Origin: Naegleria gruberi
Lineage: Eukaryota
NCBI GenBank assembly: GCA_000004985.1
Contig: GG739458.1
Length of the DNA stretch: 1,282 bases
Reading direction: 5' to 3' (one strand)
The notes below the pieces were generated by a model. That model was not told the origin of the DNA. It made no database searches and saw only the letters and a list, made by a program, of their open reading frames with translations. The translations under genes were made by a program, and so were the position numbers. This document shows positions 1 to 1,282 of this stretch, one piece after another. Each line of letters begins with the position of its first letter. The stretch's first letter is position 1.

Positions 1-519
1 AAATTCAACACAGTAATTATGCAAATATTCAAGAATATAATTTTTTAAGTGCAATTCATTTGTGCATTGAGATAAATACAGTTCAATTTCTTCCCATTTC
101 TTGGAAAGATTTTGAATGGTCAGAGATTGAATAAATTGGAATACACACAACTTTTTCAATTCTATAAATTCATTATTCTGGAATAATCCTAAAATGAATA
201 ATACATTCAAAATTTCGTCATCATTAAATTTCAATTTAATCTCATTATAAAGTTGCGAGTCAATTAATTTTTGAATAATTTGCTGTTGAGTTGAATTCAG
301 AGATGAAATTAGTGGCTCGTTCTTTAAAATCAATTTAGAAAATAATGGTGATAATATTTCAATGAGAGGAATGAATGCATAAATTGAGGTTTCGAATAGT
401 AAATCTCTTGAATGTTTTTTTAACTTGATTTCAAGTTTTTGTGGATATTTAAATCCACCAATATGAGGATTTTTTGATATATCAAAAGTAGAATCACCTC
501 CATGTCCTCGTTTCCATTT
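1..519 (-). CDS. C-terminal continuation of the same gene in the -1 frame (codon starts p=1 mod 3), 3'-partial. Degenerate final NHL blade followed by a non-NHL, probably helical region
   Basis: Every codon from 517-519 down to 1-3 was translated by hand: 173 sense codons, no TAA/TAG/TGA. The peptide starts KWKRGHGGDSTFDISKNPHIGGFKYPQKLEIKLKKHSRDLLFETSIYAFIPLIEILSPLFSKLILKNEPLISSLNSTQQQIIQKLIDSQLYNEIKLKFNDDEILNVLFILGLFQNNEFIELKKLCVFQFIQSLTIQNLSKKWEEIELYLSQCTNELHLKNYILEYLHNYCVEF. The same frame has a TGA at 580-582 (plus 'tca'), so it opens only downstream of the frameshift. There is no ATG in this frame, which argues against an independent gene. Confidence 0.7.
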
Positions 520-551
520 CCAGCAATTGTTATAATATTTCCATTCTCCAA
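420..551 (-). repeat. Frameshifted, degenerate last NHL blade in the window (unit 5)
   Basis: Starts LENGNIITIAGNG, a perfect match to the blade start, then loses frame at 511-513. In the -1 frame it continues (K)RGHGGDSTFDISKNPHIGGFKYPQKL, a degenerate match to GYGGDNGLATSAQLNYPSGVF. Confidence 0.6.
505..516 (-). other. Frameshift point: apparent 1-nt deletion in an A3 homopolymer (plus TTT at 511-513) that breaks the NHL reading frame
   Basis: Minus strand here reads ggaaatggaaacgaggacatggaggtgat. The intact blade 1 reads ggaaatggaaagcagggatatggtggtgat. One extra A would give gga aat gga aaa cga gga cat gga ggt gat, i.e. G N G K R G H G G D, matching the blade consensus GNGKQGYGGD. As it stands the frame gives GNGNEDMEVILLL, which has no NHL character, and reaches TAA at 420-422. 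Confidence 0.75.
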
Positions 552-1282
552 TATTTTTCTCGTTGTGTGATTGTTCGTTTCAGTAATATAAATTTCATAA
601 TTTGTTGAAATAAAAACACCTGATGGATGATTGAGCTGTGCATTTGTTGCATAGCCACCATCACCACCATATCCTGGCTGTTCATTTCCAGCAATTGTTT
701 CAATATTTCCACTCTCATCTATTTTTCTAATACTATGATTGAAAGTGTCTGCAATATATACTTCATTATTTGCTGAAACAAACACGCTGTATGGACGATG
801 GAGCTGTGCAGTTGTTGCAGGACCATTATCACCACTATACCCTGGCTGTCCATTTCCAGCAATTGTTACAATCCTTCCATTCTCTATTTTTCTAATTCTA
901 TGATTGAAAGTGTCAGCAATACAAATTTCATTATTTGTTGAAACAAAGACACTTTGAGGATAATAGAGTTGTGAGCTAGTTGCTGATCCATTATCACCTC
1001 CACATCCTGTCTGTCCATTTCCAGCAATTAATACAATATTTCCATTCTTCACTATTTTTCTAATTCTATTATTATTTTTGTCGGCAATAAAAACTTCATT
1101 GTTTGTTGAAACAAAGACACCCGATGGATAATTGAGTTGTGCACTTGTTGCAAGACCATTATCACCACCATATCCCTGCTTTCCATTTCCTGCAATTGTT
1201 ACAATATTTCCATTCTTCAATATTTTTCTAATTTTATGATTGTTAAAGTCGGCGATGTATACTTCATTATTTGTTGCTGAAA
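510..1282 (-). CDS. NHL-repeat beta-propeller domain, 5'-partial (runs off window end at 1282). Frame with codon starts p=0 mod 3. The ORF-track ORF 420..1220 is the same frame cut short by start/stop rules
   Basis: Five consecutive 55-56 aa units with the NHL pattern I.TIAGNG.(Q/K).GY(G/S)GDNG.AT.AQL..P.(G/S)VFVS(T/A)NNE(V/I)(F/Y/C)IAD...H.IRKI. Codon 1218-1220 is TTG (Leu), not ATG. Hand translation of 1221-1280 gives SATNNEVYIADFNNHKIRKI with no stop, so the gene continues beyond the window. Confidence 0.9.
552..719 (-). repeat. NHL blade-coding tandem repeat unit 4 (168 bp, 56 aa), more diverged
   Basis: Encodes DESGNIETIAGNEQPGYGGDGGYATNAQLNHPSGVFISTNYEIYITETNNHTTRKI. Confidence 0.85.
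720..884 (-). repeat. NHL blade-coding tandem repeat unit 3 (165 bp, 55 aa)
   Basis: Encodes ENGRIVTIAGNGQPGYSGDNGPATTAQLHRPYSVFVSANNEVYIADTFNHSIRKI. One codon shorter at the unit junction. Confidence 0.9.
885..1052 (-). repeat. NHL blade-coding tandem repeat unit 2 (168 bp, 56 aa)
   Basis: Encodes VKNGNIVLIAGNGQTGCGGDNGSATSSQLYYPQSVFVSTNNEICIADTFNHRIRKI. Shares long DNA-level identity with neighbouring units, e.g. 'tatttttctaattctat' and 'ttgttgaaacaaagacac'. Confidence 0.9.
1053..1220 (-). repeat. NHL blade-coding tandem repeat unit 1 (168 bp, 56 aa)
   Basis: Encodes LKNGNIVTIAGNGKQGYGGDNGLATSAQLNYPSGVFVSTNNEVFIADKNNNRIRKI. The DNA core 'catttcc(a/t)gcaattg' recurs at plus 515, 683, 851, 1016 and 1184 (spacing 168, 168, 165, 168). 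Confidence 0.9.
1221..1282 (-). repeat. 3' part of a further upstream NHL blade (unit 0), cut by the window edge
   Basis: Hand translation gives (F)SATNNEVYIADFNNHKIRKI, matching the VFVS(T/A)NNE..IAD...H.IRKI half of the blade consensus. Confidence 0.8.

What the first reader, a model, noticed from the sequence alone, without database searches (positions are those of the whole stretch)
1..1282. One NHL-propeller gene spans the whole window, and the listed ORF boundaries are artefacts of a single-base frameshift
The 420..1220 ORF looks like a complete 266-aa protein but is not. Its 5' 'start' is an in-frame TTG, with the frame open to base 1282. Its 3' end is produced by loss of frame at an A3 run (plus 511-513). 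After that point the frame-A tail EDMEVILLLIYQKILILVDLNIHKNLKSS has no NHL character. The -1 frame continues the blade instead (GHGGD...), and a TAA then falls at 420-422 in the original frame. Reading across the shift gives one ORF of at least 426 codons, open at both window edges. Any gene model, domain call or expression construct built on the listed ORF would be wrong.
Basis: seen in the sequence. Interest (0 to 1): 0.6.

Follow-up and report, generated by a model that had tools for sequence, protein, structure and literature searches.

The report
Frameshifted gene fragment on orphan contig
The window is a tiny unplaced contig of the Naegleria gruberi draft genome carrying the middle of one ordinary NHL-propeller/BTB gene whose frame is broken by one missing base, so the 266-codon ORF is an artefact and nothing new is hidden here.

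Summary
On the minus strand the NHL frame runs from 1280 to 513. The next frame (-1) then carries the protein on to base 1 with no stop in 169 codons. The old frame drifts 30 codons to TAA at 420-422. Six full-length Naegleria paralogues (about 700 aa: six NHL blades, a 170-aa helical region, then a BTB domain) align across the break, switching frame between 513 and 507. There, 5 nt stand in for two codons.

The window is the whole 1282-bp contig that carries the public partial model XP_002668012.1 of N. gruberi NEG-M, a Sanger draft. A near-identical gene in the same assembly, XP_002670676.1 on a 236-kb scaffold, matches 169 of 171 residues after the break. It reads straight through as GNG-KR-GHGGDS, which is what one extra A in the A3 run at 511-513 would give.

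So there is one gene, cut at both contig ends and one base short. The 3' 500 bases are not NHL. They encode a Naegleria-restricted region that is possibly BTB-like and precedes the BTB domain.

The sequence cannot say whether the missing base is a draft-sequence error (my preference, about 0.6) or a real allele- or copy-specific mutation (about 0.3). This is an ordinary finding of low interest.

The parts
513..1280 (-). NHL-repeat coding segment: 256 codons, about 4.6 blades of 56 aa, with the 5' end cut by the contig edge. It corresponds to residues 73-328 of the 727-aa paralogue P0014.
   Evidence: Pfam NHL PF01436 scores 85.8 bits (cut-off 20) in 5 stretches, and TEN_NHL PF25021 scores 89.1 bits. 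tblastn frame -3 HSPs cover 1277..513 at 62-68% identity to the paralogues.
493..1276 (.). DNA-level tandem repeat underlying the blades: period 168 nt, 4.7 copies, 79% matches.
   Evidence: Tandem Repeats Finder.
508..513 (-). Frame break. The coding strand has GG A AAC GA where relatives need GGN AAR CGN (Gly-Lys-Arg), so one base is missing. The most economical reading is A3 in place of A4 at 511-513.
   Evidence: The last blade has 5 nt where blades 1-4 have 6 nt. Two paralogue residues face 5 nt. XP_002670676.1 reads GNGKRGHGGDS.
430..507 (-). Continuation of the protein in the -1 frame: GHGGDSTFDISKNPHIGGFKYPQKLE. This is the last GxGGD motif plus a linker, and is disordered in the model.
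   Evidence: It aligns from its first residue with the paralogues; G1, G4, D5, S6 and P14 are invariant. It is identical in P0121. pLDDT is below 50 for residues 1-26.
1..429 (-). Helical, possibly BTB-like region: 143 codons, with the 3' end cut by the contig edge. In relatives it lies between the propeller and the Pfam BTB domain.
420..512 (-). Out-of-frame tail of the mechanical ORF (NEDMEVILLLIYQKILILVDLNIHKNLKSS, then TAA at 420-422). Not part of the real protein.
   Evidence: Nothing similar is seen in any relative.
1218..1220 (-). TTG listed as the ORF start. It is an internal Leu codon (KI-L-KNGN) in a frame that is open up to 1280.
   Evidence: The organism is eukaryotic.
498..1226 (-). 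Extent of the public partial model XP_002668012.1 / EFC35268.1 (243 aa). It runs five residues (NEDME) into the wrong frame and stops just before a GT.
   Evidence: The P0103 sequence mapped on the translation; accessions and the 1282-bp contig length.
424..497 (-). Formally possible 74-nt GT-AG interval (length 3n+2) that would also restore the frame. Rejected as an intron.
   Evidence: Enumeration. The interval encodes residues that are conserved in all paralogues and identical in P0121.

Best explanation
The window is an orphan 1282-bp contig of the Sanger draft genome of Naegleria gruberi NEG-M. It holds an internal part of one gene from a Naegleria-specific family. Full-length members have six NHL beta-propeller blades, a helical region of about 170 aa (possibly BTB-like), and a BTB/POZ domain, about 700 aa in all.

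The coding strand is the minus strand. Compared with every paralogue, and with a 99%-identical copy on a 236-kb scaffold (NAEGRDRAFT_74363), the contig lacks one base in GG(A) AA(A) CGA at 508-513. The mechanical ORF therefore leaves the real frame there and ends 30 codons later. Its TTG start is just an internal codon.

Shown: one gene, one missing base, the break placed within six bases, and continuity of the protein in relatives.

Inferred: the missing base is most likely a base-calling or consensus error, one A too few, in a low-coverage contig from a gene family that assembled poorly. The encoded protein probably acts as a substrate adaptor of a cullin-3 ubiquitin ligase, with the propeller binding the substrate and the BTB domain binding the cullin. 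That last point rests on the established roles of BTB domains in SPOP and KLHL proteins. It was not tested here.
For: - Source: P0103 is 100% identical, is named 'predicted protein, partial [Naegleria gruberi]', and sits on a contig of 1282 bp. The assembly is Sanger, 40.9 Mb, in 1,977 pieces (PMC9928731 Table 1).
- Frame switch between 513 and 507 in tblastn of six paralogues.
- Gap-free protein alignment across the break.
- 5 nt against 6 nt in the repeat units.
- Zero stops in 169 downstream codons, P about 3e-7.
- XP_002670676.1 reads ...TIAGNGKRGHGGDSTFDISKNPHIGG... and matches 169 of 171 residues from 513 to base 1.
- Truncated models and other orphan contigs are common in this family: P0149 starts right after the NHL part, and P0148 is a partial model on a 2086-bp contig.
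- Architecture: NHL and BTB Pfam hits in the relatives.
Against: - No reads, quality values or transcripts could be examined, so the preference for 'error' over a real mutation is a judgement.
- The contig is not simply a bad copy of the main-scaffold sequence. At one of the two differing residues (IIQ-K-LIDS, 268-270) the window keeps the family consensus while XP_002670676.1 departs from it. The two also differ by 672 nt (four blades) upstream. The contig is therefore probably a second allele or a recent duplicate, in which a real deletion is possible.
- The window departs from the family at 15 of 154 otherwise invariant positions. Its closest full-length paralogue departs at 7. This is a weak hint of relaxed constraint.
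- The cullin-adaptor function is inferred from domain content only.
Confidence: 0.6

Rival explanations
1. The one-base deletion is real. The contig would then represent a second allele or a very recent duplicate of NAEGRDRAFT_74363 that has just been inactivated. At most it would give a propeller-only protein with a 30-residue nonsense tail.
For: - The window and XP_002670676.1 differ at sites where the window, not the main scaffold, has the family-consensus residue. They also differ by four blade units. They are therefore distinct sequences rather than one sequence plus errors.
- Heterozygosity is reported for N. gruberi (PMC9928731).
- The window has 15 private departures at family-invariant columns against 7 in its sister. 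These include an in-frame codon loss (RKI-ENG) and G to E in a GNG motif.
- Large lineage-specific families usually contain pseudogenes (general knowledge).
Against: - The 169 downstream codons hold no stop in sequence of 26% G+C and stay 99% identical to the intact copy. Any inactivation would be extremely recent.
- Small orphan contigs of a Sanger draft have low coverage, so single-base indels are expected there. This rests on general knowledge and was not tested.
Confidence: 0.33
2. A 74-nt GT-AG intron (497-424, length 3n+2) restores the frame, giving ...GNGNEDME|LKKHSRDLLF... The sequence would then be correct and the gene intact.
For: This interval is the shortest GT-AG pair of length 3n+2 that starts at 497 and gives an open reading. 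The public model XP_002668012.1 ends exactly at 498, just before that GT.
Against: - In the other frame the supposed intron encodes GHGGDSTFDISKNPHIGGFKYPQKLEIK. This aligns residue for residue with all paralogues, with invariant G, G, D, S and P.
- That stretch is coding and 100% identical in XP_002670676.1.
- The spliced product would replace the conserved GxGGD motif with NEDME.
- No relative has a gap at this position.
Confidence: 0.03
3. The ribosome slips back one base at U GGA AAC (programmed -1 frameshift) and so makes the full-length protein from the sequence as it stands.
For: The shift needed is -1, and the site resembles the GGAAAC part of known slippery heptamers such as G GGA AAC. 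That comparison is from my own knowledge and was not tested.
Against: - The heptamer is not of the X XXY YYZ form, because its first base is U.
- RNA folding downstream is unremarkable: z = -1.9, with 7 of 200 shuffles folding as well.
- All paralogues and the 99%-identical copy encode the protein in one frame, so no conserved recoding site exists.
Confidence: 0.01

Closest known systems
XP_002670676.1 / EFC37932.1 (NAEGRDRAFT_74363), predicted protein of N. gruberi on a 236,320-bp scaffold
   Same: It matches 169 of 171 residues from the break to the end of the window. It also matches the first blade of the window and continues into a BTB domain. It is the same locus, an allele of it, or a very recent duplicate.
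   Different: It reads through the break (GNGKRGH). It has two amino-acid differences. It lacks four of the window's blade units (672 nt). It starts with MKYTLPT, which lies in a different frame in the window. Its DNA could not be fetched.
N. gruberi NHL-BTB paralogues XP_002668936.1 (P0014), P0029, P0032, P0040 and P0091, and N. lovaniensis C9374_011121 (P0016)
   Same: The order of parts is the same: NHL blades, GxxGDS closing motif, helical region, BTB. Identity over the whole repaired window is 50-68% with 100% coverage.
   Different: They are complete, at 679-738 aa, and lie in a single frame. The window is cut at both ends and is one base short.
Cullin-3 substrate adaptors with a BTB domain plus a substrate-binding domain (SPOP MATH-BTB; KLHL/KBTBD BTB-BACK-Kelch)
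   Different: The propeller is of the NHL type, not Kelch, and lies N-terminal to the BTB. No sequence-level match of the window region to BTB was found. Foldseek found nothing significant. Cullin binding was not tested.
Bacterial and eukaryotic NHL-repeat / teneurin-type NHL proteins (Pfam PF01436, PF25021)
   Same: The repeat motif is the same and the scores are above Pfam's cut-offs. Thousands of hits were found at 40-50% identity.
   Different: Those proteins lack the helical region and the BTB domain. The helical region has only 24 representative clusters among 1.84 billion proteins. Every named one of the 10 looked up is N. gruberi.

Membership tests
NHL repeat proteins (Pfam PF01436 / PF25021) | Repeat units scoring above Pfam's gathering threshold | tested here: met
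   PF01436 scores 85.8 bits against a cut-off of 20, in five stretches. PF25021 scores 89.1 bits against 27.1.
NHL repeat proteins (Pfam PF01436 / PF25021) | A closed propeller of six blades | tested here: inconclusive
   The window holds 4.6 units of 56 aa plus the closing GxGGD motif. Full-length paralogues have six. The 5' end is cut by the contig edge.
Naegleria NHL-BTB family (this gene's paralogues) | Colinear alignment through the blades, the GxxGDS..PHIG motif and the helical region | tested here: met
   100% query coverage and 50-68% identity. There are 40 invariant columns in the post-break part.
Naegleria NHL-BTB family (this gene's paralogues) | BTB/POZ domain (PF00651) C-terminal to the helical region | not testable with these tools
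   The window ends before this domain. The 99%-identical XP_002670676.1 has it, at 29.3 bits against a cut-off of 20.5, although only profile positions 2-42 match.
BTB/POZ fold, for window region 1-429 | Sequence match to the BTB profile | tested here: not met
   No Pfam hit at E <= 1. hhalign against the BTB domains of the same paralogues gives probability 0.8%.
BTB/POZ fold, for window region 1-429 | Structural superposition on solved BTB domains | tested here: inconclusive
Programmed -1 ribosomal frameshift site | Slippery heptamer X XXY YYZ at the shift point | tested here: not met
   The sequence is U GGA AAC.
Programmed -1 ribosomal frameshift site | Stable downstream RNA structure, and conservation of the two-frame arrangement in relatives | tested here: not met
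   z = -1.9. All relatives are in one frame.
Spliceosomal intron | GT-AG interval whose removal restores the frame without deleting conserved coding sequence | tested here: not met
   A GT-AG interval of 74 nt exists, but it covers residues that are conserved in all paralogues and identical in P0121.
Processed or decayed pseudogene | Several disabling lesions and loss of coding constraint | tested here: not met
   There is a single lesion. No stop occurs in 256 + 169 codons. Private departures at invariant sites are only mildly in excess, 15 against 7.

The most novel reading that the evidence does not exclude
Both assembled versions of this locus may be genuinely different haplotypes or recent duplicates, each damaged in its own way. 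The window keeps all its blades but has lost one base at the propeller/linker boundary. The main-scaffold version keeps the frame there but lacks four 168-nt blade units, joined within a shared AATGGAAATATT, and changes frame at its start. That would show unequal crossing-over between blade repeats and ongoing gene death inside a Naegleria-specific family of NHL-BTB proteins.
Probability: 0.25. Interest if true: 0.25.

Novelty: already known. Interest (0 to 1): 0.08.

Why it matters
It matters only for bookkeeping.

- The 266-aa ORF must not be used as a gene model, a domain boundary or an expression construct.
- Neither public model gives the full protein. XP_002668012.1 (243 aa) runs five residues into the wrong frame. 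XP_002670676.1 (392 aa) has almost no propeller.
- A better model joins window 1280-513 to 513-1 with one base added, then continues with the C-terminal 191 residues of XP_002670676.1.
- The case shows that orphan contigs of repeat-rich gene families in Sanger drafts carry frame errors that a mechanical ORF list turns into complete-looking proteins.

Tried and rejected
- **Complete 266-aa gene.** Rejected. The frame is open upstream of the TTG, the tail resembles nothing, and all relatives continue.
- **Intron 497-424.** Rejected on conservation.
- **Programmed frameshift.** No canonical slippery site, no notable RNA structure and no conservation.
- **Word-index homologue searches.** The search with the junction plus linker returned only the window's own model. 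The search with P0121 returned nine proteins. Both missed P0014. One search also missed the 99%-identical P0121, which the exhaustive search later found. These negatives are therefore weak, including the apparent lack of an ENA or Logan copy.
- **DNA of the paralogues and of NAEGRDRAFT_74363.** Not on record. No dN/dS could be computed and the A-run could not be read directly in the second copy.
- **Metagenome scan with a 32-mer next to the break.** No hit.
- **Literature.** Nothing on Naegleria NHL or BTB proteins. The 2010 genome paper is not held.
- **Relative-rate comparison.** The window is 2-9 points less identical to the outgroup paralogues than its sister P0014. The difference is too small to decide on relaxed constraint.

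Full report
**What is in the sequence**

The minus strand carries all the signal. The frame starting at 1280 reads NHL-type repeats (...YIAD..NHRIRKI..NGNI.TIAGNG..GYGGDNG.AT.AQL..P.GVFVS...) down to ...TIAGNG at 515-513. It then turns into NEDMEVILLLIYQKILILVDLNIHKNLKSS and stops at TAA 420-422.

The listed ORF 420..1220 begins at a TTG that is simply the Leu of KILKNGN, and the frame is open above it to 1280. The adjacent minus frame reads KRGHGGDSTFDISKNPHIGGFKYPQKLEIKLKKHSRDLLF... from 513 to base 1.

That stretch has no stop in 169 codons. The other five frames of 1-507 have 10-20 stops each. At this composition (26% G+C) the chance of such an open frame is about 3e-7, and none of 200,000 shuffles gave one. 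Plus 511-513 is ttt. Adding one A on the coding strand gives a continuous 427-codon reading.

**Where the base is missing**

The blades are also a DNA repeat: period 168 nt, 4.7 copies, 79% matches, 493-1276. Lining up the units gives GC(T/A)GGAAATG(G/A)A + 6 nt + GGxxxxxxxGGTGAT in blades 1-4. The last unit has only 5 nt (AACGA).

tblastn of six full-length relatives against the window gives a frame -3 HSP ending at 513 (507 in some). It gives a frame -2 HSP starting at 507 (510 in one) and running to base 1. For P0014, residues 329-330 face the 5 nt in between.

The missing base is thus confined to 508-513. The A run (GGAAAC, 511-513) is the simplest place, because relatives need GGN AAR CGN.

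**Source**

The repaired protein finds a 243-aa entry that is 100% identical, 'predicted protein, partial [Naegleria gruberi]'. This is EFC35268.1 / XP_002668012.1, and its contig is 1282 bp long. The window is therefore a whole unplaced contig of the N. gruberi NEG-M assembly.

That assembly is a Sanger draft of 40.9 Mb, 35% G+C, in 1,977 pieces with an N50 of 160 kb (PMC9928731, Table 1). The public model covers 498-1226. It includes five wrong-frame residues (NEDME) and stops exactly before a GT.

The organism is a eukaryote, so bacterial start codons and the mechanical ORF list have no bearing on the gene.

**Relatives**

Five N. gruberi proteins and one N. lovaniensis protein of 679-738 aa cover 100% of the repaired window at 50-68% identity. 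They have six NHL units, then G.GF/Y.GDS.F....PHIG, then about 170 residues with no Pfam match, then a BTB/POZ domain (PF00651, 28-46 bits against a cut-off of 20.5), and a C-terminal tail.

The post-break translation of the window aligns with them from its first to its last residue. It is 74% identical to P0014 and has 40 invariant columns. No relative ends after the blades.

**A second copy in the same assembly**

An exhaustive HMMER search of 1.84 billion representative proteins with the 169 post-break residues found P0121 at 7.5e-102 and 99% identity. P0121 is XP_002670676.1 / EFC37932.1, NAEGRDRAFT_74363, 392 aa, on a 236,320-bp scaffold.

Its sequence reads ...KILKNGNIITIAGNGKRGHGGDSTFDISKNPHIGGFKYPQKLEIKLKKHSRDLLF.... 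This is a single frame through the break, with Lys-Arg exactly where the window has AA-CGA. tblastn gives 169 of 171 identities from 513 to base 1.

**Is the missing base an error or a mutation?**

This cannot be settled here, because reads, qualities and transcripts are out of reach.

For an error:
- The contig is a tiny orphan piece of a Sanger draft.
- The family assembled badly. Other members sit on 2-kb contigs or have models that begin only after the repeats (P0148, P0149).
- Everything downstream is intact and 99% identical to the intact copy.

For a real deletion:
- The contig is not just a noisy copy of the main scaffold. At IIQ-K-LIDS it keeps the residue that all N. gruberi paralogues share, while XP_002670676.1 has N.
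- XP_002670676.1 joins the window's first blade directly to its last, a difference of 672 nt = 4 x 168.
- The window departs at 15 of 154 otherwise invariant family positions. Its sister P0014 departs at 7.
- Heterozygosity is reported for N. gruberi (PMC9928731).

I put error at about 0.6 and a real allele- or copy-specific deletion at about 0.33.

**Other readings**

Intron: a GT-AG interval of 74 nt (497-424, length 3n+2) would also restore an open frame. It may explain where the public model stops. However, it would remove GHGGDSTFDISKNPHIGGFKYPQKLEIK, which is conserved in all paralogues and identical and coding in XP_002670676.1. I reject it.

Programmed -1 frameshift: U GGA AAC is not a canonical slippery heptamer. 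The downstream RNA folds unremarkably (z = -1.9). No relative shares a two-frame layout.

**What the 3' part encodes**

Pfam finds nothing in the 169 residues. An AlphaFold model built on seven sequences is confident for residues 27-169 (mean pLDDT 80, pTM 0.72) and mostly helical. Foldseek against the PDB gives nothing significant.

The region is rare. Only 24 representative clusters match it. Of the 10 looked up, the named ones are all N. gruberi and the rest are unnamed metagenome contigs. Nine of the 10 scanned against Pfam have a BTB domain downstream.

**Likely function**

By domain content, the family looks like substrate adaptors for cullin-3 ubiquitin ligases, with an N-terminal NHL propeller in place of MATH (as in SPOP) or Kelch (as in KLHL proteins). 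This is an inference from established knowledge of BTB proteins and was not tested.

**Verdict**

The finding is correct and useful as a caution about annotation. What it describes is an ordinary gene fragment with a one-base frame break in a draft contig. The gene, its family and its partial status are already in the public record. Interest is low.

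Noticed in passing
window 1182-1267 and 513-535, compared with P0121 residues 1-33: XP_002670676.1 starts with MKYTLPT, which in the window is a different frame (MKYTSPT, 1267-1247). It then continues with the window's first blade (DFNNHKIRKILKNGNI) fused to the last blade (ITIAGNGKR). It therefore skips exactly 672 nt = 4 x 168 and needs a frame change of its own, for example a 4-nt GACT duplication. Possible causes are a real deletion by unequal crossing-over, a scaffold gap, or a forced gene model.
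   Followed up: partly
window 1-429 (minus): The region between the propeller and the BTB domain has no Pfam family. Its predicted fold superposes moderately on BTB/3-box domains. It seems restricted to Naegleria-like sequences (24 clusters in 1.84 billion proteins). The family may therefore carry a cryptic second BTB-like domain.
   Followed up: partly
window 868-885 (minus; RKI-ENGR): The third blade lacks one codon relative to all paralogues: RKIENG instead of RKILENG. This is an in-frame 3-nt loss.
   Followed up: no
window 681-683 (minus; AGNEQPG): The invariant GNG motif reads GNE in the fourth complete blade (GGA to GAA). The following blade has YITETNNHTTRKI in place of the family's YIAD..NHRIRKI. 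These may be private substitutions or further base errors.
   Followed up: partly
(tool behaviour): The word-index protein search missed both a 99%-identical protein (P0121) and a 74%-identical one (P0014) when queried with the non-NHL part. The exhaustive search found them. Negative results from that tool are unreliable for this kind of sequence.
   Followed up: yes
P0131/P0147, P0146/P0126 and P0145/P0124: Unnamed ENA contigs of 3-5 kb encode proteins that fall in the same 90%-identity clusters as N. gruberi family members. N. gruberi-like DNA is therefore present in public ENA metagenome assemblies. No such copy of the window's own gene was found.
   Followed up: partly
P0121 and P0149, same 236,320-bp scaffold: Two family members lie on the same scaffold. 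Both have gene models of about 390 aa that lack the propeller part. P0149 starts at MYPHIG, just after the blades. This suggests the blade repeats are systematically mis-modelled or mis-assembled in this family.
   Followed up: no
window 1-500 versus 501-1282: G+C is 25.6% in the helical-region part and 34.1% in the NHL part. Third codon positions are about 18-21% G+C in both parts. The difference therefore reflects amino-acid content rather than a change of origin.
   Followed up: yes
window plus strand, 627-1280: The many 27-54-aa plus-strand ORFs, some His-rich such as HLLHSHHHHHIL, recur with the 168-nt period. They are mirror images of the blade repeats, not genes.
   Followed up: yes
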